From an uncultured Clostridiaceae bacterium (GTDB lineage: Bacteria > Bacillota > Clostridia > TANB77 > CAG-508), in the NCBI GenBank assembly GCA_930990125.1, contig CAKNOI010000003.1, positions 972-64,971 of the forward strand: 64,000 bases of DNA, written 5' to 3'. Below the pieces are notes generated by a model, which did no database searches, had not been told where the DNA came from, and saw nothing but the letters and a program-made list of their open reading frames with translations. The position numbers were made by a program, and so were the translations under genes. Below, in pieces: positions 47,247-62,715 of this stretch. Numbering within the stretch: position 1 is the stretch's first letter; the number at the start of each line of letters is the position of its first letter.

Positions 47247-47750
47247 TTACTTGGAAAAAAAGATAGCTAAAAGGATAATAAGAACAATCATAATAACAAT
47301 AGAATAATAAATAGCACAAACAGCTAATAATAAAGCAAGCCCTCCTGCAATACCAAGGGTGGTATCAATAAGAAGTGTTCTCCACATTAGCTTTTTGTCA
47401 GAGGAAATACAAAGCAAAATTCCAATAAAGGAAAATAGCAAGAAAAATCCTCCAAATGTATACGCATGTTTTTCAAAACCGCCATCTAAAAATCTCCGAA
47501 ATAGGTCCATTTTAAAAGAACCTAGCGTACCATGTGAAAGCAAAAGTTCTAAAGAACAAAATACATCCATTAGCACTGCTCCGGAAAAGAATACACAAGG
47601 AGACATTCTTACAACATATCTTCGGAATGCATATACTCCTCCATAAATCCAAAAGATTAAAGCTAAAGATAGCATGCTTGGTAAAACCAGAGAAAATGCG
47701 TTTTCTGCTTCTAAATAAGATTTCAGTAAAAAGTATAACATGAAATTCAT
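47247..47750 (-). CDS. Hypothetical polytopic membrane protein (5 TM)
   Basis: Hydrophobicity pattern only. Confidence 0.45.
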   Translation of the reverse strand: MNFMLYFLLKSYLEAENAFSLVLPSMLSLALIFWIYGGVYAFRRYVVRMSPCVFFSGAVLMDVFCSLELLLSHGTLGSFKMDLFRRFLDGGFEKHAYTFGGFFLLFSFIGILLCISSDKKLMWRTLLIDTTLGIAGGLALLLAVCAIYYSIVIMIVLIILLAIFFSK

Positions 47751-48530: not shown

Positions 48531-48971
48531 ATGTTAAAAGAAACATTATTAGAAGACTTAAAAAGTGCAATGAAAGAAAAGGATACTGTTACCAAAAATA
48601 CCATACAAATGGCAAGAGCTGCTATTTTACAAGTAGAAAAAGACAAACAAATAACATTAGAAGATAACGATATCTTAACAATTCTAGCAAAAGAAGTAAA
48701 AAAGAGAAAAGACTCTTTAGTAGATTACGAAAAAGGTGGAAGAGAGGACTTAGTAGAGCAAATAAAAAAAGAAATACAAGTATTAGAAAAATATTTGCCA
48801 AAACCACTTTCTAGAGAAGAACTAGAAAAAGAAATAAAGCAAATTGTACAAGAACAAAATGCTACTAGTATGAAAGATATGGGAAAAGTAATGAAAGTGG
48901 CAAAAGAGAAAATAGGCACAAGGGCGGACGGAAAAGAGATAAATGAAATCGTAAAAAGTTTACTACAATAA
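48531..48971 (+). CDS. GatB/YqeY-domain protein
   Basis: Typical partner of rpsU; N-terminal L..L...M.A.K..D pattern. Confidence 0.8.
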   Translation: MLKETLLEDLKSAMKEKDTVTKNTIQMARAAILQVEKDKQITLEDNDILTILAKEVKKRKDSLVDYEKGGREDLVEQIKKEIQVLEKYLPKPLSREELEKEIKQIVQEQNATSMKDMGKVMKVAKEKIGTRADGKEINEIVKSLLQ

Positions 48972-48986
48972 AATTATGTAAAACGA

Positions 48987-49015
48987 TTGACGAAAAAGAC
49001 AAAATTTGGTACAAT
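48987..49015 (+). promoter_or_regulatory. Sigma-A promoter TTGACG, 17 nt, TACAAT
   Basis: Drives the Cys-rich small ORF at 49046. Confidence 0.55.
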
Positions 49016-49045
49016 AGAACTAGAGTTTTTAAGGAGGTGTTGTAA

Positions 49046-49168
49046 GTGGCTAAAAGATGTGGAGATTGTGAATATTATAGTAATGGAAGATGCACCTATG
49101 ATGGATATAGAACAGAAGGAGCAAACGACACAGAAGCACCTTACGATTGCGGACACTATAGTGCATAA
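49046..49168 (+). CDS. Unlisted 40-aa Cys-rich small protein (V/MAKRCGDCEYYSNGRCTYDGYRTEGANDTEAPYDCGHYSA); GTG start
   Basis: AAGGAGG RBS 8 nt upstream; promoter and terminator flank it; the overlapping 62-aa ORF in another frame lacks an RBS. Confidence 0.5.
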   Translation: MAKRCGDCEYYSNGRCTYDGYRTEGANDTEAPYDCGHYSA

Positions 49169-49169
49169 A

Positions 49170-49198
49170 AAATAGACCTAAAGAAGGTCTATTTTTTA
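49170..49198 (+). terminator. Intrinsic terminator (TAGACCT ... AGGTCTA + TTTTTT)
   Basis: Perfect hairpin with a T-run. Confidence 0.7.
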
Positions 49199-49227
49199 AC
49201 CAGAAAGAAATAAAAAATGGGGGAAAT

Positions 49228-51129
49228 ATGGAAAAGAAAAAGCCAATTTACACAAAAGAAAAAGGTAGTATTTTACCAAATGTGAGTAAATGGCTGATAA
49301 AGCAAAGAACTAAAAAACAAGAAGAAAAGAGAATTATTAAAAAAGTAACAGCAGGAAAATTTAAAAATCAGGAACTAAAATATCTAGCAAATGGATTAGA
49401 TATTTTAAGATTACTCTACTTTCATGGTGTAGATATTTTAGAATGGGACTTGTTAAGTTCAGATAAAGAGCGCTCTAAGAAAGAAAACATTATAAAAGCA
49501 TTAATGGTATTTACTAGAAGAAATGTAGATATTATTTTATCACAAGTATCTGGAAAAATGTGGAGCAGTTATTACGAGCAAAAAAAATTAGCGGACTTTG
49601 AAAAAAATATGGAAATTTTAGCAAAGACCAATGGTATTATTACTACAATGCAAACTAAGACAGAAATAATAGATGGAAAAGAAACAGAAATACAAAGAGA
49701 AAGAGTTTATTCGCAAAAAGAAATATATGATATATTGAACTTTTTCCAATTACAAAAAGAAGGAATAGAAGACCATGGTATAGAAGAACTAGTAAATGTA
49801 GGGTTATCTATTGCAACATTTCTAGGCACAGTAACAGAAAATATTAAACAAAGTGATAAACCAATGTTAACTGGTACTCTTTTAGCAAGTGGTATAGCAG
49901 GAGGAATTGGCAACTTTGTGTATAAACAAAAACTGCAAGACAAAGAAGAAAATAAAGTAAGAGAAAAAAGAAGAAATGTAAGGTTTTACGAGCAAGAAAT
50001 GATAGAAACAGAACCGGTAAGCCAAGAAGATGAACGTTACATGCGAGAAAAAACAAAACAAAGTATGGAAGACTATCAAAAAGCAAAACAAAAACTATAT
50101 GGAAGACTAGATAGTGCAGATACAGGACTAAGCCTTGCTATTTCTTTAATGGTAGGGGCATTAACTATCAATCAAGTAGTAAAAGAAGGAAAGTTTACGG
50201 TTTCTTCTATTCCTAAAATATTGGCTCAATTTGGAGCAAATACAAGGGTTATATCTGGTCTAGGTCTTACCATGGGACAAATAAAAAGATTTCAAGAAAG
50301 AAGAATGGACTACAAAGAAGTGTTAGAAGAAGTACAAAACATTGTAAAACAAATAGAAGAAAAAGCAGAAAAACTAACAGAAGTAACACATCCTTTTACC
50401 CGTTTAAGTTTGCAGGATGTAACATTAAATTTTTATCAGACAGAAAATGAACAAGGAGGAGAAAAATACGGAAAAACATTAACAATACCTGAATTTCACG
50501 CCGATACCGGAGAAATAGTATTAGTAACAGGAAAATCAGGAAATGGAAAAAGTACATTACTAAAGCACTTAAAAAATGGAGATATACATAACCCAAAAAC
50601 AATTGCAATAGACGGAACAGAAAAAGTAGATAAAATAGGTAAAAAAGCAGTTATGTTTTCTTCAAGAATGCGATTAAGTGACATGACAAATATCCTAGGA
50701 CAAATAACAAGAAAAGAAAGACTAGAAGAATTAACTGCAGAAGAAAGACAAAAATTTGTTGCTATTCTAAAAGACTTAGAACTTTACCGAGAAGGAAAAA
50801 ATATGAAAGATATTATTTCTAAACGATATAGCGAATTTTCTAGCGGACAAAAAAACCGTATTGCCCTTGCAAAAGTATTGTACATGCTAGATGATAGTAA
50901 ACAAGTATTACTCCTAGACGAACCAACTAATTTCGTAGAAAAAGAATTAAGAAGAAAAACTTTCCATACCATTCAAAAATACTGCAAACAAGGAAAACCA
51001 AAAACCATTATTATAGCAACACATGATATTGAAATAGCAGAAGAAGTAGCAAATAGAAGATACAATATAACAGAAGAAGGATTAGTAGAAGAAGTACCAA
51101 TACAAAAAAATAAAGAAGAAAGATGCTAA
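49228..51129 (+). CDS. Atypical ABC-type ATPase fusion: ~400-aa N-terminal domain of unknown function (about 3 weak hydrophobic segments, coiled-coil) plus a C-terminal ABC nucleotide-binding domain
   Basis: Walker A GKSGNGKST, signature FSSGQKNRIALAKVL, Walker B LLLDEPTN, H-loop ATHD; no canonical 6-TM exporter domain. Confidence 0.7.
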   Translation: MEKKKPIYTKEKGSILPNVSKWLIKQRTKKQEEKRIIKKVTAGKFKNQELKYLANGLDILRLLYFHGVDILEWDLLSSDKERSKKENIIKALMVFTRRNVDIILSQVSGKMWSSYYEQKKLADFEKNMEILAKTNGIITTMQTKTEIIDGKETEIQRERVYSQKEIYDILNFFQLQKEGIEDHGIEELVNVGLSIATFLGTVTENIKQSDKPMLTGTLLASGIAGGIGNFVYKQKLQDKEENKVREKRRNVRFYEQEMIETEPVSQEDERYMREKTKQSMEDYQKAKQKLYGRLDSADTGLSLAISLMVGALTINQVVKEGKFTVSSIPKILAQFGANTRVISGLGLTMGQIKRFQERRMDYKEVLEEVQNIVKQIEEKAEKLTEVTHPFTRLSLQDVTLNFYQTENEQGGEKYGKTLTIPEFHADTGEIVLVTGKSGNGKSTLLKHLKNGDIHNPKTIAIDGTEKVDKIGKKAVMFSSRMRLSDMTNILGQITRKERLEELTAEERQKFVAILKDLELYREGKNMKDIISKRYSEFSSGQKNRIALAKVLYMLDDSKQVLLLDEPTNFVEKELRRKTFHTIQKYCKQGKPKTIIIATHDIEIAEEVANRRYNITEEGLVEEVPIQKNKEERC

Positions 51130-51240
51130 AAAAATAGCATCTTTTAAATTTTAATACAAAAAGCTTGTATAAATTTTCCAAAATGTATTATACTATCTAT
51201 AAAGAGAAAAAAACGCTTGAAAAAGAAAGGAAAGAAAAGA

Positions 51241-52515
51241 ATGAAAGAAAAGAAAATACAAATAAAAGAGGGAATTACTTTGCATTATATTCCAACCAAT
51301 AAATTTAAAAACAACATGCTTGCTGTTTTTTTAACGACACCGCTAGATAGAAAAACTGTTACTTGGAATAGTTTGCTAACAGCCGTATTAAGAAGAGGAA
51401 CGAAAACCATGCCAAGTCAAGAAAAAATTAGCGAAAATTTAGAAAAAATGTATGGAGCTTCTTTTGACTGTGGAGTAGAAAAAACAGGAGATAACCAAGT
51501 ATTAAAATTTTACATGGAGTCTCTTAATAATGAATTCTTACCAGAAAAAGAAAATTTGTTACAAGAAAGTATAGATATTTTATTAGAGGTAGTATGGAAT
51601 CCCTACTTAGAAAATGGAGCTTTTTCTAGGGAATATGTAGAAGGAGAAAAACATACTATAAAGCAATTAATAAAAGGAAAAATAGACGATAAAGCCAAAT
51701 ATGCAGTAGAACGTACTACAGAATTAATGTACCCAAATAAGCCATATGGATTATATAAATTTGGATATTTAGAGGATTTAGAAAGCATAACACCAGAAAA
51801 TTTATATACCCATTACCAAAAGCTTTTACAAGAATGTAAAATAGATATATTTGCTTCTGGAGATATAGACAAAGAAGAATTGGTCTCCATGTTGATGCAA
51901 AATGAGCAAATCCAAAAACTACAAGATAGAAAACCAAACTTTATCTGCCATGCGGATGCTTCCGAATTAGAAATACCAAAAACTCCAAACAAAGTAACAG
52001 AAAGCATGAACGTTTCCCAAGGGAAACTTATTTTGGGAATGTATGTGGATAGTAAAAAACCGGACGATAAATACGTGGCACTACTCTATAATGCTATTTT
52101 AGGAGGAAACGCGAATTCAAAATTATTTCAAAATGTAAGAGAAAAAGCAAGCCTTGCCTATACAGCAAGTTCTTCCTATATTAGACCTAAAAATATTATT
52201 TTTATTAAATGTGGCATAGAAATAGAAAACGAAGCAAAAACATTAGACATTATTGAAAAACAACTTCAAGACATAAAAAAGGGAGAATTCTCAGAAGAAG
52301 AAATAGAAATTTGTAAAAAACAAATAATATCTGCAATTAAAGGAATACCAGAGGGACAAGATACCGAAATTATTTACTATTATGGACAAGAAATTGCTGG
52401 CGAAAATGTTAGCTTAGAAGAATATATACAAAAGGTAAATGCAGTAACAAAGCAAGATATTATTGCACTTGCTCAAATGATAAATGTGCACACAGTTTAT
52501 TTCTTAAAAGATTAG
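51241..52515 (+). CDS. M16 family peptidase, non-catalytic subunit (no HxxEH); probable start at ATG 51241
   Basis: Insulinase-like fold length and C-terminal patterns; lacks the zinc-binding HxxEH. Confidence 0.7.
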   Translation: MKEKKIQIKEGITLHYIPTNKFKNNMLAVFLTTPLDRKTVTWNSLLTAVLRRGTKTMPSQEKISENLEKMYGASFDCGVEKTGDNQVLKFYMESLNNEFLPEKENLLQESIDILLEVVWNPYLENGAFSREYVEGEKHTIKQLIKGKIDDKAKYAVERTTELMYPNKPYGLYKFGYLEDLESITPENLYTHYQKLLQECKIDIFASGDIDKEELVSMLMQNEQIQKLQDRKPNFICHADASELEIPKTPNKVTESMNVSQGKLILGMYVDSKKPDDKYVALLYNAILGGNANSKLFQNVREKASLAYTASSSYIRPKNIIFIKCGIEIENEAKTLDIIEKQLQDIKKGEFSEEEIEICKKQIISAIKGIPEGQDTEIIYYYGQEIAGENVSLEEYIQKVNAVTKQDIIALAQMINVHTVYFLKD

Positions 52516-52528
52516 GAGGAAAATCAAC

Positions 52529-53821
52529 ATGCAGGTAATTGAAAATTTAAAAGTAAAAGAAAAAGTATATATAGAGACCTTAGAAAATGGATTAACGGTT
52601 CTTATTATTCCTAAAAAAGAAACAGAGAAAAAATTTATTATATGGGGAACTAATTTTGGATCTATTGATAGTAAATTTATAGCACCAGGAGAAAACGAAA
52701 TCACAACAGTTCCAGATGGAGTAGCCCACTTTTTGGAACATAAGTTATTTGAGCAAAAAAATGGAACCAATAGCCTAGATACATTAACTGCGATAGGAGT
52801 GGATGCCAATGCCTATACGACAACAGACCACACAGCATATTTATACGAATGTAACGATAAATTTTACGAAGCATTAGACGAGTTTATGGATTATGTACAA
52901 AATCCATACTTTACCAAAGAAAATGTAGAAAAAGAGAAAGGAATTATAGGACAAGAAATCCGCATGTACGATGACCACCCAGGTTGGCAGGTTTATATAA
53001 ATGCCATGCAGTGTTTATATCAAAATAATCCTGTTCGCATTGATATAGCAGGAAGCATTGAAAGTATTTCTAACATTGATAAAGATATTTTATACAAATC
53101 TTACAATACATTTTATCATCCATCTAATATGTGCTTAGTAGTATGCGGAAATTTTGAAGCAGAAGCTATTTTAGAAGAAATAAAAAAACGATTACTTCCA
53201 AAAGAAATAATAGGAGAAATACAAAGAATTTATCCAGAAGAACCAGAAAAGGTTGCAAACAAAGAATGTAAGAAACAAATGGAAGTAAGTACCCCAATTT
53301 TTGTAATAGGCATCAAAGATAAAGTAAGCAAGGAAAATATGGTAAAAAAACATATTGCTATTGAAGTTCTATTAAATATGATAATAGGAAAAAGTTCTAA
53401 ATTATATCAAACACTATATAAACAAGGATTATTGTTAGAAGAACCAGATATGCAATATGAGTGGTCCAAAGAGTATGCCCATATTACTATTTCAGCACAA
53501 AGTAAAGATCCTAAAAAAGTCTACCAAGGAATAGCAGATACCATACAAGAATATAAGAAACACGGCCTAGAACTAGAACATTTTGACAGAATAAAAAGAA
53601 AAATTTATGGCGATTATGTAAAAGAATTTGACGATGTGGCAGATATTGCAAGAATGTTTTTAGCAGACTGGATGAAAGGGGTAAATAGTTTTTCTTACTT
53701 AGAGCAATATAATGCTGTTACCAAATCTTATGCAGAAGAAATCCTAAAAGAAGTATTTCTAGAAGACAAAACCATCCTATCTGTTGTTGAACCTAATAGT
53801 AGTAGTAAGGAAGAAAAATAG
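52529..53821 (+). CDS. M16 family zinc peptidase, catalytic subunit
   Basis: HFLEH inverzincin motif and downstream E; RBS GGAGG. Confidence 0.8.
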   Translation: MQVIENLKVKEKVYIETLENGLTVLIIPKKETEKKFIIWGTNFGSIDSKFIAPGENEITTVPDGVAHFLEHKLFEQKNGTNSLDTLTAIGVDANAYTTTDHTAYLYECNDKFYEALDEFMDYVQNPYFTKENVEKEKGIIGQEIRMYDDHPGWQVYINAMQCLYQNNPVRIDIAGSIESISNIDKDILYKSYNTFYHPSNMCLVVCGNFEAEAILEEIKKRLLPKEIIGEIQRIYPEEPEKVANKECKKQMEVSTPIFVIGIKDKVSKENMVKKHIAIEVLLNMIIGKSSKLYQTLYKQGLLLEEPDMQYEWSKEYAHITISAQSKDPKKVYQGIADTIQEYKKHGLELEHFDRIKRKIYGDYVKEFDDVADIARMFLADWMKGVNSFSYLEQYNAVTKSYAEEILKEVFLEDKTILSVVEPNSSSKEEK

Positions 53822-54652
53822 ATGACAATTACGATTCCGCTTTTTTCTATCACCATAGCAATTCCTAAGATAGCATGCACTATCTTAGGAATCCAAATTT
53901 ATTGGTATGGAATTATTATTGCAATAGCAATGGCAGTTGCTGTTATTTTATACTATAAAAAAAGTGGTACTTATGGAATATCTTTTGACACTATTCTTAG
54001 TGCATTTTTATGGGTTATTCCATTTGCATTTTTGGGTGCTAGACTTTATTATGTCATATTCCGATGGGACTATTATAGTAGTAATCCTAGCCAAATACTA
54101 CAAATTAAAAACGGAGGACTAGCCATTTATGGAGGTTTGTTCGTAGGAGTGGCTATCTTATGTTTTTACTGCAAAAAAAATAAAATATGCATCCGAGACA
54201 TGCTAGACTATGTGGTACCAGAAATAGCAATAGCACAATCGATAGGAAGATGGGGAAATTTTTTTAATGTAGAAGCCTATGGAGTAGAAACCACCCTGCC
54301 ATGGAAAATGGGAATTGAAGCACAGGGAACGAACTCATACGTACATCCCACTTTTTTGTATGAATCTATTTGCACATTAGGAATCTATCTTTTACTACAC
54401 AAAATAGAAAAAAACAGAAAATGGAAAGGTCAGATAACTTGCTTATATATCACACTTTATTCTTTTGCTAGAATGTGGATAGAAGGCTTAAGAACAGACA
54501 GTCTATATCTAGGAAATATTCGTATTTCGCAATTAGTATCCATTATCCTTTTTGTCGTTTTTGGTAGTATTTTGTTTTATTTTGCATACCACAATAGAAA
54601 AATGTCAAAAAAAGAAGAAAAAAATAAAAAAGTGACATACAAAAATGCCTGA
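53822..54652 (+). CDS. lgt: Prolipoprotein diacylglyceryl transferase
   Basis: Polytopic; G..R.GNFFN.E..G signature region (GRWGNFFNVEAYG). Confidence 0.85.
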   Translation: MTITIPLFSITIAIPKIACTILGIQIYWYGIIIAIAMAVAVILYYKKSGTYGISFDTILSAFLWVIPFAFLGARLYYVIFRWDYYSSNPSQILQIKNGGLAIYGGLFVGVAILCFYCKKNKICIRDMLDYVVPEIAIAQSIGRWGNFFNVEAYGVETTLPWKMGIEAQGTNSYVHPTFLYESICTLGIYLLLHKIEKNRKWKGQITCLYITLYSFARMWIEGLRTDSLYLGNIRISQLVSIILFVVFGSILFYFAYHNRKMSKKEEKNKKVTYKNA

Positions 54653-55129: not shown

Positions 55130-55513
55130 ATGAAAAACAAAACAGTAAAAATAATTTCTGCAATAATGTTAGTAATGATGGTATTATTTTCAATGTCTAA
55201 TTTAGTACTTGCAGCTACAACTGGAGATCCATTAGACCCAAGTAAAATACAAGGACAACCATCTAAGGCTTCTGACAAAGTTAATGAGGCGGCAAATATT
55301 ATTTTAGGAATTGTTCAAGTAGTAGCTGTTGCAGTAGCGGTTATTATGCTTATTGTGTTAGCAGTTAAATATATATCCGCATCTCCAGAAGGAAAAGCGG
55401 ATATTAAAAAATCTGCAACAATGTACATTGTAGGAGCTATCTTACTATTTGCATCTACAGGTATTCTAGAAATACTAAAACAATTTGCAACAAGTACATT
55501 TGGAGGAGAATAA
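55130..55513 (+). CDS. Pilin-like small membrane protein (VirB2/TrbC-like; signal peptide + 2 TM), paralog 1
   Basis: Signal peptide ...VLAA; ILGIVQVVAVAVAVIML..AVKYISASPEGKADIK..ATMYIVGAILLFA. Confidence 0.6.
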   Translation: MKNKTVKIISAIMLVMMVLFSMSNLVLAATTGDPLDPSKIQGQPSKASDKVNEAANIILGIVQVVAVAVAVIMLIVLAVKYISASPEGKADIKKSATMYIVGAILLFASTGILEILKQFATSTFGGE

Positions 55514-55594
55514 TTTTTCATACCTATAAGCAAGAAAAATCAGGAGATGGTAAATACAATTTACCATCTTTTTTCAAAAAAGGTGGTGGATGTT

Positions 55595-55951
55595 ATGACA
55601 AGAAAAAAAATAGTAAGAATTATTGGTATTTTAATACTAGCAATGTTGTTAGGCTCAACGTTTGTTTTTGCAGATGACATTAATACAGGAGGCTATACAG
55701 GAATCTATCATGGGGGATCCCAAAGCATACGAAATGCAGGAAGCCTTATCCTAGGAGTAGTACAAGTAGTAGGAACAAGTATAGCGGTTATTATGCTAGT
55801 AATTATAGCTATTCGTTACTTTACTGCTGCACCAGAGGCAAAGGCAGATATTAAAAGCCAGCTTATCCCTTATGTAATAGGAGCTGTATTGCTATTTGCA
55901 GCAAGCAACCTAGTAAGTATTGTAGCAACAGCAGCACAGGAGATTTTTTAA
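55595..55951 (+). CDS. Pilin-like small membrane protein, paralog 2
   Basis: ILGVVQVVGTSIAVIMLVIIAIRYFTAAPEAKADIK...PYVIGAVLLFAA matches paralog 1; RBS AGGTGGTGG. Confidence 0.6.
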   Translation: MTRKKIVRIIGILILAMLLGSTFVFADDINTGGYTGIYHGGSQSIRNAGSLILGVVQVVGTSIAVIMLVIIAIRYFTAAPEAKADIKSQLIPYVIGAVLLFAASNLVSIVATAAQEIF

Positions 55952-56194
55952 AATTGCTTACGGACAAAGGCAAAAGGAGCGAACACTTACAAACAAAAGT
56001 AAAACATAAGACAAAAAGAAAAAAGAGTCAAAATAGAACGCAAAAAACAGGTCTATTTTGGCTCTTTTATTGCAACAATATTACAGTTATATGAAAAGTT
56101 CATAATAATGACGAATATAACCTATAAATGTTGAAAAATACAGGGAAATGAAGTATAATAATAAGTAATAGAGTGTAAAAGTGGGGTGAAAGAA

Positions 56195-56734
56195 ATGAAA
56201 GGAAAAACAATGAAAAAAATAATTTACAGTATCCTGTTACTTCTATTAACAATAAGCCTAATACTTCCAAGCACAGTACAAGGATATACACAAGATATAG
56301 TCTTAGCTGACGCAGACGGTGGAGATACTGTTACTGGTGGTGGAGGAAGCGCAGATGGGTTTACTTTGGATAGTATTAAAGAACAAGCAGATACCTGGCT
56401 AAATGGGGGAAAAGGACAAGACCATATTAATGACCAACAGCTACAAAACATTATCATTCCTATTGGACAAATGTTAGTAGCAATAGGAAGTGTGGTACTG
56501 GTTATTGTTACTACTATCATGGGTATTAAATACATCATGGGTGGACCAGATAAAAGAGCACAATTAAAACAACAATTAGTAGGTTTGGTAGTAGCAACTA
56601 TTGTTATTTTCGCTGCACAAGCAATATGGGCACTCGTATATAATTTTATGACAGACTTAACAGTAAGTAAAAAAGTAGAAAGAACCCCAATGAAACAAGA
56701 AATACAATTACCAGAAGAAATCTGGAAAGGATAA
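56195..56734 (+). CDS. Pilin-like small membrane protein, paralog 3 (longer, Gly/Asp-rich N-terminal extension)
   Basis: IPIGQMLVAIGSVVLVIVTTIMGIKYIMGGPDKRAQLKQQLVGLVVATIVIFAA has the same two-helix layout. Confidence 0.55.
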   Translation: MKGKTMKKIIYSILLLLLTISLILPSTVQGYTQDIVLADADGGDTVTGGGGSADGFTLDSIKEQADTWLNGGKGQDHINDQQLQNIIIPIGQMLVAIGSVVLVIVTTIMGIKYIMGGPDKRAQLKQQLVGLVVATIVIFAAQAIWALVYNFMTDLTVSKKVERTPMKQEIQLPEEIWKG

Positions 56735-56750
56735 CAAAGGAGGAAAAATA

Positions 56751-57089
56751 ATGGGTACATATTATATTCCTAGAAATGTAAAAGGAGAAACAAGATTATT
56801 AAATATCTTTACCGTAAAATCTCTTATCACAACCGTTGCAGGAACAATCATTGGTTCTGTATTTTATCTTATTTTTGGACTACTTCTGGGACTAAAACCA
56901 GTAGGAATTGGAATAATGGTTTTCTTTGCTGTAGTAGGATTTGGAGTAGGAGCCATTAAAATACCAACACTAGGAGGAATTCCTTTTACCCAAAAAATTG
57001 GTGGAGAATCCTTAGACGAAATCATAAGAAGATACATCAAATTTAAAATGAACCGAAAAGTGTACACTTATACAAAGGAGGAAAAATAG
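56751..57089 (+). CDS. VirB3/PrgI-like small two-TM T4SS protein
   Basis: 112 aa, two adjacent TMs, directly upstream of the VirB4 region; RBS AAAGGAGG. Confidence 0.55.
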   Translation: MGTYYIPRNVKGETRLLNIFTVKSLITTVAGTIIGSVFYLIFGLLLGLKPVGIGIMVFFAVVGFGVGAIKIPTLGGIPFTQKIGGESLDEIIRRYIKFKMNRKVYTYTKEEK

Positions 57090-57092
57090 AAC

Positions 57093-58277
57093 ATGGATAT
57101 CATTGTTATACTGAACTTAGTTTTAATTATAGCTGTTATACTAATTGCTATTTTTGCTGGACTGTTCTTCTGGTTTTGGATGCGCTCTAAAAAGAAACAA
57201 GAAGAAGAGCTATTAGATGGACAAGCACCAAAAGAACAATCCACTTTTCATGGCATACCAAGAGAGTCTATTTATAAATTTTTAGAGTTTGACGAAATAA
57301 AAGATAATATGATTATCCGAAAAAATAGACAACAATATGTTATGGTAATCCAATGCCAAGGAGTTAACTATGACTTATTATCCGAAGAAGAAAAAGTAGC
57401 GGTAGAAGAAGGATTTGTCCAATTCTTAAACACGCTTCGTTTTCCAATTCAATTATATATTCAAACAAGAAGTCTAAATTTAAGAGAAATTGTAGATGAA
57501 TACAAAGAACGCGTAAAGAAAATGCAAGAAGAACTAGATGCACTAAATGTAAGAATAAGAGATGCAGAAAGACGTGGCAATCAAAAAGAAATAGATAAAT
57601 TAAATTATGAAAGAAGAAGAAAAGAAAACGTATTAGAATATGGAGCTGACATTGCAGATTATGTAGGAAGACTAAGTTTAAATAAAAATGTATTGCAACA
57701 AAGAAATTATGTTGTTGTTTCTTACTACGCATCCGAATTTAGTGGAGGAGATAAGTATTCAAAAGAAGAAATAGACAATATCTGTTTTGGAGAACTATAT
57801 ACAAGATGTCAATCCATTATTCGTTCTTTATCTTCTTCTAGCGTTCTAGGAAAGGTATTAACATCAGAAGAATTAGGAGAGCTACTTTATATTGCTTATA
57901 ACAGAGATGAATCTGAAATTATGCAATTATCCAAAGCTCTAGATGCACAATACGATGCTCTATATAGCACTGCAAAAGATGTATTACAGAAAAAGCAAGC
58001 ACAAATAGAAGAACAGCTTGAAGTAGAAGCAGTAAACCTAGCAACAGAAAGTATTTTAGAAGCAGACAGAATTCGTAAAAAAGAATTAAGTAATGAAGAT
58101 AAGAAAAAGAAAATAAAAGAAAAAGCATTACAAATGATAGAAGAATATAAAGATCAAATGGATGCTGACCTTTACGAAGAAACTAAAAAGGAAATTGTAA
58201 GACAAGCAGAAAATTTAGAAGAGAAAACAGAAAAGAAGAAACAAACAAGTAGAACAAAAGCAAAGAAAGGAGAATAA
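57093..58277 (+). CDS. T4SS-associated membrane protein: N-terminal TM then a long charged coiled-coil (394 aa)
   Basis: RBS AAAGGAGG; operonic with virB4. Confidence 0.5.
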   Translation: MDIIVILNLVLIIAVILIAIFAGLFFWFWMRSKKKQEEELLDGQAPKEQSTFHGIPRESIYKFLEFDEIKDNMIIRKNRQQYVMVIQCQGVNYDLLSEEEKVAVEEGFVQFLNTLRFPIQLYIQTRSLNLREIVDEYKERVKKMQEELDALNVRIRDAERRGNQKEIDKLNYERRRKENVLEYGADIADYVGRLSLNKNVLQQRNYVVVSYYASEFSGGDKYSKEEIDNICFGELYTRCQSIIRSLSSSSVLGKVLTSEELGELLYIAYNRDESEIMQLSKALDAQYDALYSTAKDVLQKKQAQIEEQLEVEAVNLATESILEADRIRKKELSNEDKKKKIKEKALQMIEEYKDQMDADLYEETKKEIVRQAENLEEKTEKKKQTSRTKAKKGE

Positions 58278-58283
58278 TCGGAT

Positions 58284-60251
58284 ATGAGAAAAAACAAAAA
58301 GATTGAACAAGAACAAGCTATACAAAGTGAAAATATGCAAGGTGTATTAAATAAAAATGCAAAGACCATAAAAGATTTAATTGCACCTGCTGGAATAGAT
58401 GCAAGCAACACCAATCACTTGGAAATTGTATCTAATCGTTCTAGGTTTGCAAGAAGTATGGTTGTTTCTACTATTCCAAGGATGTGTACCTTCCCAGAGT
58501 TTTTAAGAAGCATGTACACATTTGGGGATGCAAACATTTCCGTATTTATTAATCCTATCAGTGAAAGTACCTCACAAACAGACTTAAATAGAACCATTAA
58601 TGAGCTAGAATCAGAAAGAATTGTAGCAATGGACAAAGGAGATATTAACCGTGAAAGAATTCTAGCACAAAAAAGATTAGAAGCAGAAGAACTAAGAGAC
58701 CAAATTGCAGCAGGGTTTAATAAAATATTTGAATCTTCTATTATATGTACGTTATTTGCCTATAACCTAGAAGATTTAAACAAACAAACAGAATTCTTAG
58801 CATCAGAAATGTCCAAAACATTAATAGGAGTAAAACCAGCATGGGCAATGCAAGAAGAAGCATTTAAATCCAATATGCCATATTGTGATAATAAAATAAA
58901 TAAAGCCCATTCTTTTGACCGTAGAAGTATGGCAACAGTATTCCCATTCTTTACTTCTGACGTAGGACATGAAAAAGGAATACCACTAGGATTTAACAGA
59001 CAAACAGGATTACCTATTTTATTTGATAACTTTAGCCCAAAACTAACCAATTACAACATGATTATTTTTGGTAAATCTGGTGCTGGTAAAGGTGTAACCA
59101 TCAAAACGTTAACAGCACGTTCTGCTGTATTAATGGGAATTGAAAGTTTAGCACTAGATGCCGAAGGTGAGTATGGAGTAGTGGCAGAATCTTTAGGAGG
59201 AATTAATGTTACCATTAGTCCAAACTCTAATACAATTATTAACCTATTTGACTTAGAACCAGAAATTGTACGTGATGAGATTACCGGAAGAGAAAGAACA
59301 GTATTAAATATAGAAAATAAAGTAGAAGACGTAACACAGGCTCTACTTACCATGGCAAGAGGAAGTACAAGAAGTACAGAGGTAAACGAGCTTACCAAAC
59401 AAATTATAGCAGAAGCAGTAGCCGAGGAATATGCAGGACTTGGTATTACCAATAGTTTAGAAAGTCTTTACACAGACGAAACACCAGCATTTCGTAAAAA
59501 CTATTTAGGAAGAACCAAAAAAGAAATGCCAACCATTGGTTCTTGGTATAAAAGAATTTTGCAAAATGCAAGTAAAAATGATAACCCAGACTATCGTTTC
59601 CACTATAGTTATTTAGCAAAAGTAATGAGACAATATGTAAGAGAATACGATGGACAAATGGCATACTTTGACGGACAATCTACTTTTGAATTATTAGATA
59701 GTGTACCATTTATTAACCTAGATATTTCCCAACTAGAAGAGAGATTTGCAAGACCACTTGCACAACAAATTCTACTTTCTTGGATTTGGGAAAAATATGT
59801 TAAGAAAAACAGTGAAGATAGAACCAAAGCAACCAAAAAAAGAGTACTAGTAGACGAGGCATGGATGTTACTACCATATCCAGAAGCAGTAGACTTCTTA
59901 AATACAATGGCAAGACGTGCCAGAAAAAGAAATGTATCCCTTGCCGTAGTATCACAAAAATTCCAAGACTTTTATGAAAAACAAGAAGCACAAGCAGTTT
60001 TAACATCATCTGATACAAAATTATTCTTAGCACAAGATAAATCTGAAATTGAATATATAAAAGAAGTATTTAAACTAAGCGAAGGAGAAGCAGCATTTTT
60101 AACAACCTGCAGTAGAGGAGAAGGACTATTAAAAGTAGGAGAAGATACAGCAATTATTGCAATTAAACCAACACAAAAAGAATTCGAATTCGTAGAAACA
60201 AACGTAAACGAAATTGTAAGACATAATAGAAGAAAAACAGACCCAAAATAA
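58284..60251 (+). CDS. VirB4/TraE/ConE-family conjugation ATPase
   Basis: Walker A IIFGKSGAGKGVTIKT, Walker B VLVDEAWMLL, N-terminal VirB4 domain (NHLEIVSNRSRFARSMVVSTIPRMCTFPEFL). Confidence 0.85.
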   Translation: MRKNKKIEQEQAIQSENMQGVLNKNAKTIKDLIAPAGIDASNTNHLEIVSNRSRFARSMVVSTIPRMCTFPEFLRSMYTFGDANISVFINPISESTSQTDLNRTINELESERIVAMDKGDINRERILAQKRLEAEELRDQIAAGFNKIFESSIICTLFAYNLEDLNKQTEFLASEMSKTLIGVKPAWAMQEEAFKSNMPYCDNKINKAHSFDRRSMATVFPFFTSDVGHEKGIPLGFNRQTGLPILFDNFSPKLTNYNMIIFGKSGAGKGVTIKTLTARSAVLMGIESLALDAEGEYGVVAESLGGINVTISPNSNTIINLFDLEPEIVRDEITGRERTVLNIENKVEDVTQALLTMARGSTRSTEVNELTKQIIAEAVAEEYAGLGITNSLESLYTDETPAFRKNYLGRTKKEMPTIGSWYKRILQNASKNDNPDYRFHYSYLAKVMRQYVREYDGQMAYFDGQSTFELLDSVPFINLDISQLEERFARPLAQQILLSWIWEKYVKKNSEDRTKATKKRVLVDEAWMLLPYPEAVDFLNTMARRARKRNVSLAVVSQKFQDFYEKQEAQAVLTSSDTKLFLAQDKSEIEYIKEVFKLSEGEAAFLTTCSRGEGLLKVGEDTAIIAIKPTQKEFEFVETNVNEIVRHNRRKTDPK

Positions 60252-60287
60252 AAGAAAAAAAGAAATGATAAAGAAAGGAGATAGGAA

Positions 60288-61490
60288 ATGAAAAAACTAC
60301 TTACCAGTATGCTAATAATTATGGTTTTATTTCAGACCGTACTATCTCCAAAAACTATTTTTGCTGCAGAAGTAGCAGAGGATACTGCTACAGATACAGT
60401 ATCAGAAGAAGCACCATATACCCAGGAAGATATTGATAAATTGTTACACAATGGAACAGGAAACAAGGGAGATAAAGAGGATGTTACCATTGATAGAGAT
60501 TTGGGGGATGGACAAAGCATTTATGATATGAACTCTAATACAACAAAAAGTATTTTTACTATGTTATTTGGAGTATTAAATATGATTCCATTAACCATAA
60601 GTACTATTCTTTCACTAGCAGTAACAGATTTTGTTGTCCCAGATAAACAAGTACCTAATTTTCTAACAATAGAGGATTTAGTATTTGGCAAAATTTCCAT
60701 GTTAGATATTAATTTTTTAAGTAATCAGAATATGGGAACTACACAAAATGGAGTAGAAATTAATGCTCAAATTAAAGAGCAGGTAGCTATATGGTATTAT
60801 GCTGTAAGAAATATTGCCATTGTTTTATCTTTAATTGTTCTACTATATGTAGGGATTCGAATGGCAATTTCAACCGTGGCTGCTGAAAGAGCTAAATATA
60901 AAGAAATGTTAAAAAATTGGCTTATTTCCTTTGTGTTACTATTTACACTACAATATATTATATCTGCTATATTTTTGTTTTACTCTCTATGTATTCAAGT
61001 AACTTCACATTTGTATAGCAATGAAGCAGGATTTGAACAAGAAATTATTAATAATGTAATGCTAGATTTAGATAAAGAAGTGGGAATAGATGTAGTTTTA
61101 TCTTCTATTACTTACTGGATATTAGTCTTTTACCAAGTACGATTTTTACTAATATATGTAAAAAGATTTATTGTAACAGGATTTTTAATAGCAATTGCAC
61201 CAGCAATTACGGTAACTTATACCATAGATAAAATGGCAGATAAAAGAGCACAAGCATTTGAAACATGGAAAAGAGAGTTAATTATTAACATTCTAATTCA
61301 GCCATTACATATTTTAATATATACTGTATTCCTTGTGGCTGCAGGAGCAATAGTAGAAACAGCACCAATACTATCCATACTTTTCTTTACATCTTTATCA
61401 AGAGTAGAGAAAATTGTAAAGGGAGTATTTAGAATGAGAGGAGCTAAATCAATTCATTCTATGTCAGAAACACTAAGATTAAAAAAATAG
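60288..61490 (+). CDS. VirB6/TrbL-like polytopic T4SS channel protein (paralog A, with an N-terminal secreted domain)
   Basis: Signal peptide, ~170-aa external domain, then 6-7 TMs starting IWYYAVRNIAIVLSLIVLLYVGIRMAIST. Confidence 0.65.
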   Translation: MKKLLTSMLIIMVLFQTVLSPKTIFAAEVAEDTATDTVSEEAPYTQEDIDKLLHNGTGNKGDKEDVTIDRDLGDGQSIYDMNSNTTKSIFTMLFGVLNMIPLTISTILSLAVTDFVVPDKQVPNFLTIEDLVFGKISMLDINFLSNQNMGTTQNGVEINAQIKEQVAIWYYAVRNIAIVLSLIVLLYVGIRMAISTVAAERAKYKEMLKNWLISFVLLFTLQYIISAIFLFYSLCIQVTSHLYSNEAGFEQEIINNVMLDLDKEVGIDVVLSSITYWILVFYQVRFLLIYVKRFIVTGFLIAIAPAITVTYTIDKMADKRAQAFETWKRELIINILIQPLHILIYTVFLVAAGAIVETAPILSILFFTSLSRVEKIVKGVFRMRGAKSIHSMSETLRLKK

Positions 61491-61509
61491 TAAAGAAAGG
61501 ATGGTAATA

Positions 61510-62715
61510 ATGAGCAAAAAGAAAAAAATTCTAATTGGTATATTGGTTTTGTTGATTATCGTGTTACTTATCTATCTTACCATCCGTTATTTACAAGGAC
61601 TTACCTATGATCCAGAAAAGCCATACCAAACAATAAAAGAAGCGGTAGAAGCCTTAGGACATACTTACCTAAAAGAAGAAACATCTACGGAAGAAAGATT
61701 TTCCGAAGATATTTACCTAAATTTTTCGGTGGACTTATACACAGAAGAAAACAGTAATGAAAAAATATATAATGACCTTATTTATACAATTGCAAGAGTA
61801 GAAAAATACAAAAGTTTTCGCTTAATAGACCCAGAAAAAGAAACAGTAATTGCAGTACTTGCCAATGAACAAGAAAAAAAGTTAGTTAGAATTTATATTA
61901 ACGGAGACGATAACTACTTTGGAAGACATAGGTCTATGGAAACGATAGAAGAATATACAGAAACACCGGTTACAGACTTTATCATAGAATCGCCTATTCT
62001 TCAAGATAGTATAAGAACAAATTGGAGTACCAATATTTATCTAGGAACCGAAGATGAAAAAAGAGAAGATTATAGAATTTATTCAGATGAGGGGCTAGAA
62101 GTAAAAAAAGTAGATAATAAATTATTTAACATTGTTTTTACACAAAATTATAACAACACCATAGTAAATGGCATAAAAGTAGGAGAAACAATAGATGCTA
62201 TTATTCCTATACTAGGAACTCCAACCTTTGGAAGCAAACAGGAAGGCTTAATAGGATACAAAGGAGAACAATTCTATATTTTCTTTATGGAAAAAGAAAT
62301 TTCTGTTTATCCAGTACTTAAAAATTATGACACAACAGAATTTGTGCAATTAGTTACAACTTATACGGAAGAAGGAAATGCAAGCGATTTTGTAAAAAAA
62401 ATAACAGGCTTATGGAGTGATTATGATCTTTATGAACATGACACAAACTATGTAAAATTACGATATACCTTAAAAGGAGTAGAAATACAATTTAATATTA
62501 CTCCAAACCATGGTATTACCTATTACCAAAATTATCAAGGAGAAATAAAAGAAGGAATTAATTTTAGTAATCTAAAGGAAAAAGAAGGAGAACTATCCAA
62601 TTATATTTATTTTCAGCTAGATACAAACTTAGTATATAAAACAGAACAAGAAAGATTTCATGCATTTCTTTTAAGAGAAAAGGCAAAAGAAACATTAAAT
62701 CCATATGATGAGTAA
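61510..62715 (+). CDS. Bitopic T4SS protein (TcpC/VirB8-like topology: N-terminal TM + ~370-aa external domain)
   Basis: RBS AAAGGA 8 nt before ATG 61510; single TM. Confidence 0.5.
   Translation: MSKKKKILIGILVLLIIVLLIYLTIRYLQGLTYDPEKPYQTIKEAVEALGHTYLKEETSTEERFSEDIYLNFSVDLYTEENSNEKIYNDLIYTIARVEKYKSFRLIDPEKETVIAVLANEQEKKLVRIYINGDDNYFGRHRSMETIEEYTETPVTDFIIESPILQDSIRTNWSTNIYLGTEDEKREDYRIYSDEGLEVKKVDNKLFNIVFTQNYNNTIVNGIKVGETIDAIIPILGTPTFGSKQEGLIGYKGEQFYIFFMEKEISVYPVLKNYDTTEFVQLVTTYTEEGNASDFVKKITGLWSDYDLYEHDTNYVKLRYTLKGVEIQFNITPNHGITYYQNYQGEIKEGINFSNLKEKEGELSNYIYFQLDTNLVYKTEQERFHAFLLREKAKETLNPYDE

What the first reader, a model, noticed from the sequence alone, without database searches (positions are those of the whole stretch)
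48987..53821. Self-contained Cys-rich 40-aa peptide gene followed by an atypical ABC-ATPase fusion and an inactive/active M16 peptidase pair
The 40-aa ORF (4 Cys: C5, C8, C16, C35) has its own consensus promoter (TTGACG-17-TACAAT), a strong RBS and a perfect terminator. The neighbouring genes are a non-canonical ABC protein and a YmfF/YmfH-like M16 pair; M16 pairs such as AlbE/AlbF are found in sactipeptide loci. The arrangement is reminiscent of a RiPP or secreted-peptide locus, but no radical-SAM or other maturase lies adjacent. It could equally be a small zinc-ribbon protein in a housekeeping context.
Basis: partly seen in the sequence, partly recalled or inferred. Interest (0 to 1): 0.6.

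Follow-up and report, generated by a model that had tools for sequence, protein, structure and literature searches.

The report
Orphan Cys-rich mini-protein plus odd ABC ATPase
A real, strongly signalled 40-residue cysteine-rich protein gene and an unusual ABC-type ATPase form a small two-gene unit seen in only two uncultured gut Clostridia species, and it sits by chance next to an ordinary housekeeping protease pair, so this is not a peptide-antibiotic gene cluster.

Summary
The sequence features are all present as described: the 40-aa ORF (C5, C8, C16, C35, plus H37), promoter TTGACG-17-TGgTACAAT, Shine-Dalgarno AAGGAGGTG, a 14-bp hairpin followed by T6, a 633-aa protein with an orphan 400-aa N-domain and a C-terminal ABC ATPase domain, and an inactive/active M16 pair.

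The three elements are not one locus.
- **M16 pair:** these genes are the widespread YfmF/YfmH (B. subtilis ymfF/ymfH) equivalogs. Nine related MAG genomes keep rpsU-(yqeY)-yfmF-yfmH-(lgt)-spo0E-like but lack both the peptide and the ABC gene.
- **Peptide and ABC gene:** together they form a 2.2-kb transcription unit with its own promoter and terminator, set between yqeY and yfmF. I found it only in the window's species and one sister species.

The peptide is a genuine coding gene. Its frame is open in both species while the competing frame has stops in the sister. All Cys and His are conserved. dN/dS is 0.21, and dS is low, as in rpsU.

No homologue of the peptide or of the ABC N-domain turned up in any search. 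The only radical-SAM gene nearby is the NrdG equivalog.

The most likely reading is an abundant cytoplasmic metal-binding mini-protein, with the ABC ATPase expressed at a lower level by terminator read-through. Function is inferred, not shown. Interest is modest.

The parts
48987..49015 (+). Sigma-70-type promoter of the pep40 unit: -35 TTGACG, 17-nt spacer, extended -10 TGgTACAAT
   Evidence: The sister species has TTGACT-17-TAAAAT at the same position.
49031..49039 (+). Shine-Dalgarno AAGGAGGTG, 6 nt upstream of the GTG start
   Evidence: Identical in the sister species.
49046..49168 (+). pep40: 40-aa acidic Cys/Tyr-rich protein (CxxC-x7-C-x18-CxH); an orphan family
   Evidence: ORF. An in-frame TAA directly precedes the GTG. 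The sister species is 87-90% identical with all Cys and His kept. dN/dS is 0.21 and dS 0.25. The competing +1 frame is broken in the sister. No family hit in Pfam, NCBIfam, PADLOC or PHROGs. No other homologue among 1.84 billion representatives.
49166..49198 (+). Intrinsic terminator or attenuator hairpin (14-bp stem, 5-nt loop, T6) that overlaps the stop codon
   Evidence: A hairpin plus T6 is kept in the sister species. No promoter-like site lies between it and ABC633, so read-through is inferred.
49228..50427 (+). ABC633 N-terminal ~400 residues: orphan, mostly helical domain with Gly/Ala/Thr-rich weakly hydrophobic helices (residues ~188-232 and 299-350) and a long charged helix between them
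   Evidence: Homologues only in its own and the sister species. No Pfam hit at E up to 10. No hit in plasmids or phages. Hydropathy. Conservation pattern.
50428..51129 (+). ABC633 C-terminal ABC ATPase domain: Walker A GKSGNGKS(T), signature FSSGQ, Walker B VLLLDEP and H-loop THD are present. The Q-loop Gln is replaced by Ser and the D-loop SALD by NFVE.
   Evidence: PF00005, 60.5 bits; alignment to 4yms_J; motif positions.
51118..51145 (+). Bidirectional terminator-like hairpin that closes the pep40-ABC633 unit
   Evidence: 11 pairs, 6-nt loop.
51217..52515 (+). yfmF/ymfF-family inactive M16B subunit (no HxxEH). The true start is probably the ATG at 51241. Not part of the cassette.
   Evidence: NF047422, 414.9 bits against a cut-off of 285. 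No HxxEH. The sister-species gene call is 424 aa. Conserved without the cassette in L011-L019.
52529..53821 (+). yfmH/ymfH-family active M16B subunit (H67FLEH71). Not part of the cassette.
   Evidence: NF047421, 434 bits against a cut-off of 250. Motif. Synteny.
48531..48971 (+). yqeY (GatB/YqeY domain protein), the upstream border of the insertion slot
   Evidence: PF09424, 163.7 bits. It lies directly before yfmF in L017, with a 367-nt spacer holding no ORF of 30 aa or more in L013.

Best explanation
The flagged interval holds two unrelated things.

(1) yfmF/yfmH is the conserved inactive/active M16B peptidase pair of Bacillota. Here it is part of a vertically inherited backbone: nrdD-nrdG-rpsU-yqeY-yfmF-yfmH-(lgt)-spo0E-like.

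(2) A 2.2-kb lineage-specific transcription unit lies between yqeY and yfmF. Its order is: strong sigma-A promoter, pep40, hairpin terminator, ABC633, terminator.

pep40 is a genuine, probably very highly expressed protein. I read it as a cytoplasmic metal-binding mini-protein. The likely fold is a CxxC knuckle plus beta-hairpin, closed by C16 and/or C35-x-H37, followed by an acidic tail. It is not a RiPP precursor.

ABC633 has no promoter of its own. It is most likely made at a much lower level by read-through of the pep40 hairpin, so the pair is produced at a high peptide-to-ATPase ratio.

Shown: gene reality, the signals, the restricted distribution, and independence from the M16 pair. Inferred: metal binding, cytoplasmic location, read-through, and any functional coupling of pep40 with ABC633.
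For: **Coding status.** The frame is open in both species, while the alternative 62-aa frame has stops in the sister. An in-frame stop lies just before the GTG. There are 5 synonymous and 5 non-synonymous changes against a neutral expectation of about 1:4, giving binomial P = 0.029. All Cys and His are invariant.

**High expression (inferred).** The promoter is near-consensus with an extended -10, and the SD is strong. dS is 0.25, low like rpsU at 0.065, against 0.7-1.2 for the neighbours.

**Lineage-specific cassette, M16 independent.** Nine genomes with YfmF at 50-57% identity keep the backbone but lack pep40 and ABC633. In L016 and L018 a 486-488-aa PMT_2-like membrane protein fills the same slot. 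The cassette is present in all 24 contigs read that carry the window's exact YqeY.

**Separate unit.** A terminator follows ABC633.

**M16 identity.** NCBIfam equivalogs score above their cut-offs.

**No maturase.** NrdG is the RNR activase equivalog.

**Not secretion-like.** The peptide has no hydrophobic or leader-like segment, pI 4.65 and GRAVY -1.2. The AF2 model gives a beta-hairpin at residues 9-18 right after the CxxC, though at low confidence.

**Read-through.** No promoter-like site lies between the hairpin and ABC633, yet ABC633 is under purifying selection with dN/dS 0.30.
Against: - No zinc-ribbon or other family model matches pep40.
- The structure prediction is unreliable, with pLDDT 54.
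- Metal binding is inferred only from the Cys/His spacing.
- The peptide-ABC co-occurrence rests on a single evolutionary gain (two sister species), so it has little statistical weight either for or against coupling.
- A promoter-peptide-leaky terminator-ABC layout is also typical of exported-peptide operons.
- The low dS could instead reflect an RNA-level constraint or recent recombination.
- The orphan status of the ABC633 N-domain rests on a word-indexed search, Pfam and tblastn of plasmids and phages, not on an exhaustive profile search.
Confidence: 0.55

Rival explanations
1. pep40 is an unmodified, leaderless exported peptide (bacteriocin, signal or metal-scavenging peptide), and ABC633 is its dedicated membrane exporter or immunity ATPase.
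For: - The two genes co-occur, and ABC633 appears to depend on the pep40 promoter through a hairpin.
- ABC633's NBD is of transporter type, with best matches to ArtP, MJ0796, BceA, FtsE and MacB, and MsbA aligning over residues 326-607.
- The best-conserved N-domain stretches are Gly/Ala/Thr-rich helices that could form two membrane hairpins.
- The N-terminal half of pep40 is invariant and the C-terminal half variable, like a leader/core pattern.
Against: - pep40 is acidic and strongly hydrophilic, with no leader, GG motif or amphipathic cationic character.
- It is far more conserved (88-90%) than ABC633 (61%), the reverse of typical bacteriocin/transporter pairs.
- ABC633 has no ABC_membrane or C39 domain. 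Only one 19-residue window passes the usual hydropathy threshold, and the Q-loop Gln that couples the NBD to the TMD is lost.
- No separate immunity or permease gene lies in the unit.
Confidence: 0.2
2. One reading: a RiPP-type locus in which the adjacent M16 pair trims the peptide (AlbE/AlbF-like) and the ABC protein exports it.
For: M16B heterodimers do act on RiPP precursors. Even B. subtilis YmfF/YmfH cleaves class III lanthipeptide leaders, at about 4% of the efficiency of the dedicated pair (PMC8960859). Trans use of the neighbouring pair therefore cannot be strictly excluded.
Against: - The pair consists of the housekeeping YfmF/YfmH equivalogs.
- It keeps its position in nine genomes that lack the peptide and the ABC gene.
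- It is separated from the cassette by a terminator.
- There is no maturase. The only radical-SAM gene within reach is NrdG.
- pep40 matches no NCBIfam or Pfam model of any kind, RiPP precursor families included.
Confidence: 0.04
3. pep40 is mainly a regulatory leader ORF. Its translation up to the stop codon, which overlaps the 5' arm of the hairpin, modulates termination and so controls ABC633 expression.
For: - The stop codon (49166-49168) lies inside the 5' arm of the terminator.
- ABC633 has no promoter of its own.
- A predicted SD/anti-SD pairing within the mRNA is invariant.
- NCBIfam shows weak, generic similarity of the NBD to ABC-F resistance proteins, which are often attenuator-controlled.
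Against: - Leader peptides are usually shorter and their amino-acid sequence is poorly conserved. Here all four Cys and His37 and 35 of 40 residues are kept while neighbours have diverged to dS near 1.
- ABC633 has one NBD, not the two of ABC-F proteins.
- No alternative antiterminator structure has covariation support.
Confidence: 0.1
4. The cassette is a conflict system (toxin-antitoxin or anti-phage), with an ABC-type ATPase effector or sensor and a small zinc-ribbon partner.
For: - It is an accessory two-gene unit in a variable slot between housekeeping genes.
- ABC633 evolves fast, at 61% identity and dN/dS 0.30.
- There are weak PADLOC hits to ABC-type defence ATPases: mad3 at 54 bits, plus AriA and PtuA.
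Against: - The PADLOC hits cover only generic NBD motifs.
- The NBD resembles transporter NBDs more than the SMC, OLD or AAA_21 type.
- There is no nuclease or other effector domain.
- The cassette is fixed in all contigs read of the species, with no composition anomaly and no flanking repeats.
- There are no phage or plasmid homologues.
Confidence: 0.08
5. The 150-nt promoter-to-terminator unit is a non-coding sRNA and the ORF is incidental.
For: The nucleotide sequence is unusually conserved at 91.7%, with the first ~60 nt identical. The transcript folds better than shuffles, z = -3.4.
Against: - Strong SD at ideal spacing, a frame kept open, and a competing frame broken.
- Half of the substitutions are synonymous third-position changes.
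- No Rfam match.
- No compensatory pair in the alignment fold.
Confidence: 0.03

Closest known systems
B. subtilis YmfF/YmfH M16B heterodimer (NCBIfam NF047422/NF047421, 'EF-P 5-aminopentanol modification-associated')
   Same: The two M16 genes of the window score as equivalogs. They show the same inactive-then-active order and HxxEH only in the second subunit.
   Different: In this window lgt follows the pair directly, whereas in B. subtilis ymfI follows (from my own knowledge of that genome, not tested here). The pair has no demonstrated link to pep40.
Subtilosin-type sactipeptide locus (sboA-albABCDEFG)
   Same: A small Cys-containing, anionic peptide gene, an ABC ATPase and an M16 pair lie in one neighbourhood.
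   Different: There is no radical-SAM maturase, and the peptide matches no family model. The M16 pair is the housekeeping YfmF/YfmH and persists without the peptide.
Leaderless or class II bacteriocin gene plus dedicated ABC exporter
   Same: A short peptide gene with its own strong promoter and a hairpin is followed by an ABC gene that depends on read-through.
   Different: The peptide is acidic and hydrophilic. The ABC protein lacks a recognisable ABC_membrane TMD and C39 domain and has a degenerate Q-loop. No immunity gene is present.
Zinc-ribbon or rubredoxin-knuckle mini-proteins (for example Zn-binding ribosomal proteins bL36 and bL33)
   Same: Size, a CxxC knuckle followed by a predicted beta-hairpin, further Cys/His ligands, very strong expression signals, and low dS like a ribosomal protein gene.
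   Different: pep40 is acidic rather than basic, matches no family model, and is restricted to two species. The second ligand pair is irregular (C16 and C35-x-H37).
Type IV (MsbA/Sav1866-like) ABC half-transporters
   Same: The NBD is C-terminal, the overall length is about 600 aa, and weak profile alignments reach upstream of the NBD: MsbA over 326-607, CydC from residue 290, PrtD from residue 250.
   Different: No ABC_membrane hit even at E = 10. The N-domain is highly charged with at most four weakly hydrophobic helices. The Q-loop Gln is lost.

Membership tests
YfmF/YfmH (YmfF/YmfH) M16B pair | Score above the curated equivalog cut-offs of NF047422 and NF047421 | tested here: met
   414.9 bits against 285, and 434 bits against 250.
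YfmF/YfmH (YmfF/YmfH) M16B pair | One subunit with the HxxEH zinc site and one without | tested here: met
   H67FLEH71 in the 52529-53821 product and none in the 51217-52515 product.
Sactipeptide/ranthipeptide (RiPP) locus | Radical-SAM (SPASM) maturase encoded next to the precursor | tested here: not met
   The only radical-SAM protein nearby is the NrdG equivalog (TIGR02491, 174 bits against 126), sitting beside NrdD. The genes from nrdD to the T4SS-like cluster are accounted for.
Sactipeptide/ranthipeptide (RiPP) locus | Precursor peptide recognised by a curated precursor family model | tested here: not met
   pep40 has 0 hits in NCBIfam and 0 in Pfam at E up to 0.1.
Sactipeptide/ranthipeptide (RiPP) locus | Processing peptidase genes co-distributed with the precursor | tested here: not met
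   The M16 pair is present in nine related genomes that lack pep40.
Peptide/bacteriocin ABC exporter (type IV exporter, with or without C39 peptidase) | ABC ATPase domain with catalytic motifs | tested here: met
   PF00005 at 60.5 bits. Walker A, signature, Walker B (DEP) and H-loop are present, but the Q-loop Gln is replaced by Ser.
Peptide/bacteriocin ABC exporter (type IV exporter, with or without C39 peptidase) | Six-helix ABC_membrane transmembrane domain (PF00664) and, for double-glycine peptides, a C39 domain | tested here: not met
   No PF00664 or C39 hit at E up to 10 on the N-domain. Only one hydropathy window exceeds 1.6. The AF2 model is too poor to judge the fold.
ABC-F translation/resistance factors | Two tandem NBDs joined by a linker, and no membrane domain | tested here: not met
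   A single NBD at residues ~409-630.
Zinc-ribbon small proteins | Two zinc knuckles (CxxC ... CxxC/H) flanking a beta-hairpin, and metal binding | tested here: inconclusive
   A CxxC followed by a predicted beta-hairpin at residues 9-18 is present. The second ligand set is irregular (C16, C35-x-H37). pLDDT is 54 and no family model hits. Metal binding cannot be tested here.
Known anti-phage defence systems (PADLOC) | Specific match to a system's component models | tested here: not met
   pep40 has no hit. ABC633 has only partial NBD-level hits (mad3 at 54 bits over residues 480-623, plus AriA and PtuA).

The most novel reading that the evidence does not exclude
pep40 and ABC633 together are a previously undescribed minimal peptide-handling ABC system. 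In this reading, a four-helix membrane ABC ATPase with a degenerate Q-loop exports, or loads with metal, a leaderless, acidic, Cys/Tyr-rich 4.5-kDa peptide made in large excess. The peptide might act as a metal-scavenging or signalling peptide in uncultured gut Clostridia, with no modification enzyme involved.
Probability: 0.12. Interest if true: 0.6.

Novelty: new variant of a known kind. Interest (0 to 1): 0.3.

Why it matters
If the peptide and the ATPase work together, this would be a compact and unusual small-protein/ABC pair from an uncultured gut lineage. Both parts currently have no relatives in very large databases. That adds to the catalogue of functional microbiome small proteins that annotation pipelines mis-call. 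In some assemblies a 62-aa out-of-frame ORF is annotated here instead of pep40.

The more immediate value is negative. An M16 pair lying next to a Cys-rich peptide is not evidence for a RiPP cluster when the pair is the YfmF/YfmH housekeeping equivalog. Synteny in relatives is a quick way to show that.

Tried and rejected
- **Structure route.** AF2 on pep40 (3-row alignment) gave pLDDT 54, and on ABC633 (6 rows) pLDDT 39.6. Both are too poor, so I ran no fold search.
- **Peptide homology.** The word-indexed search returned only its own and the sister species' clusters. The exhaustive HMMER search of 1.84 billion representatives added only two long repeat proteins (SdrD_B, collagen), which I judge compositional. 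The metagenome scan returned one same-species locus and the viral scan none. tblastn against phages and plasmids gave only E ≥ 5 noise. tblastn found no paralogue in the window or in any fetched locus.
- **ABC633 N-domain.** No homologues beyond the two species, no Pfam hit at E ≤ 10, no meaningful PHROGs hit, and nothing in plasmids or phages. Partial relatives (P0005, P0024) share only the NBD.
- **RNA readings.** No Rfam family in the region. The alignment fold shows no compensatory pairs.
- **Mobile-element signs.** No GC anomaly and no flanking direct or inverted repeats.
- **Defence.** Only generic NBD hits in PADLOC.
- **167-aa membrane protein upstream.** No Pfam, NCBIfam, PADLOC or PHROGs hit and no plasmid tblastn match.
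- **Window's own genome.** It did not turn up in the GTDB representative scan, so the organism is named only through relatives (uncultured Clostridia, near Candidatus Merdicola).
Full report
**1. What is in the sequence**

A 40-codon ORF lies at 49046-49168 on the + strand, with a GTG start. It encodes MAKRCGDCEYYSNGRCTYDGYRTEGANDTEAPYDCGHYSA, with Cys at 5, 8, 16 and 35, His37 and six Tyr. The product is acidic and very hydrophilic: pI 4.65, net charge about -3.5, GRAVY -1.2.

Upstream lie TTGACG (48987-48992), a 17-nt spacer and TGgTACAAT (49007-49015). This is a 10/12 match with an extended -10. AAGGAGGTG lies at 49031-49039, 6 nt before the start.

The stop codon runs into a perfect 14-nt inverted repeat, 49166-49179 and 49185-49198, with a 5-nt loop and a T-run. 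It folds at -15.6 kcal/mol with z = -6.75. The simple scanner missed it only because the A-run and T-run extend the stem and consume the T-tail.

Next comes a 633-aa ORF, 49228-51129, which I call ABC633. Only its last ~230 residues match ABC_tran and solved ABC nucleotide-binding domains.

Two M16 genes follow. The 51217-52515 product has no HxxEH. The 52529-53821 product has H67FLEH71.

**2. The M16 pair is ordinary and independent**

Both M16 proteins score as NCBIfam equivalogs. YfmF_fam gives 414.9 bits against a cut-off of 285, and YfmH_fam gives 434 bits against 250. NCBIfam names them 'EF-P 5-aminopentanol modification-associated'. They correspond to B. subtilis ymfF/ymfH. That pair has been shown to be a general M16B heterodimer, able to trim class III lanthipeptide leaders only inefficiently, at about 4% of a dedicated pair (PMC8960859).

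A scan of one genome per GTDB species with the YfmF protein returned nine loci at 50-57% identity. All are uncultured Clostridia MAGs, one labelled Candidatus Merdicola. tblastn of the window's proteins against them shows that the order rpsU-(yqeY)-yfmF-yfmH-(lgt)-spo0E-like is retained. Neither pep40 nor ABC633 is present in any of them.

- In L017, yqeY ends 100 nt before yfmF.
- In L012 and L014, rpsU is directly followed by yfmF.
- In L013, the 367-nt spacer holds no ORF of 30 aa or more.
- In L016 and L018, the slot holds an unrelated 486-488-aa polytopic membrane protein with a weak PMT_2 match.

In the window a terminator-like hairpin (51118-51145) separates ABC633 from yfmF. The M16 pair is therefore part of a conserved backbone and is not a component of a peptide locus.

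**3. The peptide and the ABC gene form a lineage-specific cassette**

pep40 was found only in the window's own species and one sister species. The exact sequence is on about 100 contigs, and the sister species carries P0001 at 88-90% identity on 28 contigs.

- An exhaustive HMMER search of 1.84 billion representative proteins added nothing except two long repeat proteins, an SdrD_B-repeat protein and a collagen-repeat protein. I regard these as compositional hits.
- Degenerate-pattern scans gave one same-species locus in metagenome contigs and none in viral contigs.
- Phage and plasmid tblastn gave only noise.

ABC633 shows the same distribution. Its full-length relatives are its own cluster and P0004 at 61% identity. 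Its first 400 residues have no other relatives in the word-indexed search, Pfam, PHROGs, plasmids or phages.

The sister-species loci have identical gene order from nrdD to the T4SS-like genes, except that lgt is missing. All 24 contigs read that carry the window's exact YqeY have the same context.

The cassette has no GC anomaly and no flanking repeats. The simplest history is one gain in the common ancestor of the two species. That is an inference. It also means the peptide-ABC co-occurrence counts as a single event.

**4. pep40 is a real coding gene and probably highly expressed**

The window and sister sequences align from promoter to terminator, and the -35, -10, SD and hairpin stay in register.

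Within the ORF there are 10 substitutions, 5 synonymous and 5 non-synonymous. This gives dN/dS = 0.21, and the binomial probability of so few non-synonymous changes under neutrality is 0.029. All four Cys and His37 are invariant. The changes are R22I, E24Q, E30D, D34E and A40E, all in the C-terminal half.

Some public gene calls choose the competing 62-aa ORF in the +1 frame (48987-49175). That frame is interrupted by stops in the sister species, while the pep40 frame is open in both. In the window an in-frame TAA directly precedes the GTG, which fixes the start.

pep40's dS of 0.25 is far below that of the neighbours (0.7-1.2). Only rpsU, at 0.065, is lower. Together with the near-consensus signals this suggests strong expression with codon selection. 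An RNA-level constraint is an alternative. No Rfam family matches and the alignment fold has no compensatory pairs.

**5. What ABC633 looks like**

The NBD has Walker A GKSGNGKS(T), signature FSSGQ, Walker B VLLLDEP and H-loop THD. In the alignment to an amino-acid importer NBD (4yms_J), the Q-loop glutamine is replaced by serine and the D-loop SALD by NFVE. The closest solved NBDs are of transporter type: ArtP, MJ0796, BceA, FtsE and MacB. MsbA aligns over residues 326-607.

The N-terminal 400 residues are predicted to be mostly helical (low confidence) and about 30% charged. The segments best conserved between the two species are Gly/Ala/Thr-rich helices at ~188-232 and ~299-350. Only one 19-residue window, centred on residue 309, exceeds the usual hydropathy threshold. 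Membrane insertion is therefore possible but not established.

No promoter-like site lies between the pep40 hairpin and the ABC633 start, 29 nt downstream. ABC633 is nonetheless under purifying selection, with dN/dS 0.30. I infer that it is expressed by read-through of the hairpin, at a level well below pep40.

**6. Most likely mechanism and its rivals**

My best reading, at about 0.55 overall, has two parts of different strength.

- Structural part: two separate units, a real gene, a lineage-specific cassette, and no M16-linked RiPP. I put this at about 0.8.
- Functional part: an abundant cytoplasmic metal-binding mini-protein, with a CxxC knuckle and beta-hairpin closed by C16 and/or C35-x-H37. 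I put this at about 0.45.

The functional part fits the hydrophilic acidic composition, the absence of any leader, the high conservation relative to ABC633, and expression signals like those of a ribosomal protein gene. No family model or confident structure backs it.

The main rival, at 0.2, is a leaderless exported peptide with ABC633 as its exporter. The operon layout and the possible membrane helices favour it. The peptide's chemistry, the missing TMD and C39 domains, and the lost Q-loop Gln count against it.

A leader-ORF/attenuator reading (0.1), a conflict-system reading (0.08), the original M16-dependent RiPP reading (0.04) and an sRNA reading (0.03) are each less likely, for the reasons listed under the rivals.

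**7. Novelty and verdict**

- The M16 pair is already known.
- The peptide and the ABC N-domain are orphans with no detectable relatives.
- The cassette resembles the known 'small peptide gene plus ABC gene' layout, but its parts are atypical.

I file it as a new variant of a known kind, with function unproven. It is a modestly interesting small-protein lead (0.3), not a RiPP cluster.

**8. Limits**

- Both structure predictions failed because the alignments were too shallow.
- The window's own genome did not appear in the species-representative collection, so taxonomy is by relatives only.

Noticed in passing
window 55130-62715; also L001 13392-16123, L012, L013, L016, L017, L018: A type IV secretion-like cluster follows the spo0E-like gene. 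It comprises three TrbC/T4SS_pilin-like genes, a PrgI-like gene, a TraC-like gene, a 655-aa VirB4/TraG P-loop ATPase and a further pilin-domain protein. The cluster sits at the same chromosomal site in several relatives with YfmF only 50-57% identical, and the ATPase is 67-76% identical. It looks like a vertically inherited chromosomal system rather than a recent conjugative element.
   Followed up: partly
window 47247-47750 (-): A 167-aa multi-helix membrane protein with no family hit lies between nrdG and rpsU. It is present only in the window's species and the sister species and is only 41% identical between them. It is absent where nrdG abuts rpsU (L011, L015, L018). It is thus a second fast-evolving lineage-specific gene with the same distribution as the pep40-ABC633 cassette, 1.3 kb away. 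A functional link (permease or immunity partner?) is untested.
   Followed up: partly
L016 6129-7595; L018 6494-7954: The yqeY-yfmF slot that holds pep40-ABC633 in the window holds a 486-488-aa polytopic membrane protein in two relatives, with a weak PMT_2 glycosyltransferase-like hit at 24.6 bits. The slot is therefore a variable insertion site.
   Followed up: partly
window 48987-49175 (+); L021 and L022 4457-4645: Public gene calls for this species sometimes annotate a 62-aa out-of-frame ORF that starts at the promoter's -35 box, instead of pep40. That frame carries stops in the sister species.
   Followed up: yes
window 53822-54652; L001 12809-12913: lgt follows yfmH directly in the window, with its start codon immediately after the yfmH stop, and also in L018. 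The sister species has only a 35-residue remnant matching the Lgt C-terminus (51% identity, E = 0.01) at that place. This suggests a recent deletion of this lgt copy.
   Followed up: no
window 49034-49040 with 49136-49142: The predicted mRNA fold pairs the Shine-Dalgarno region (GAGGUGU) with GCACCUU inside codons 30-32 of pep40. Both sides are invariant in the sister species, so there is no covariation evidence either way.
   Followed up: no
cluster 2: The 90%-identity cluster that holds the 40-aa peptides also lists a 623-aa JGI protein named as a tRNA uridine 5-carboxymethylaminomethyl modification enzyme (P0103). This is probably a clustering artefact. I did not examine it.
   Followed up: no
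window 51160-51200: A weak promoter-like element (TTGTAT ... TATTATACT) lies between the ABC633 terminator and yfmF. That would be consistent with separate transcription of the M16 pair. It falls below the scanner's threshold.
   Followed up: no
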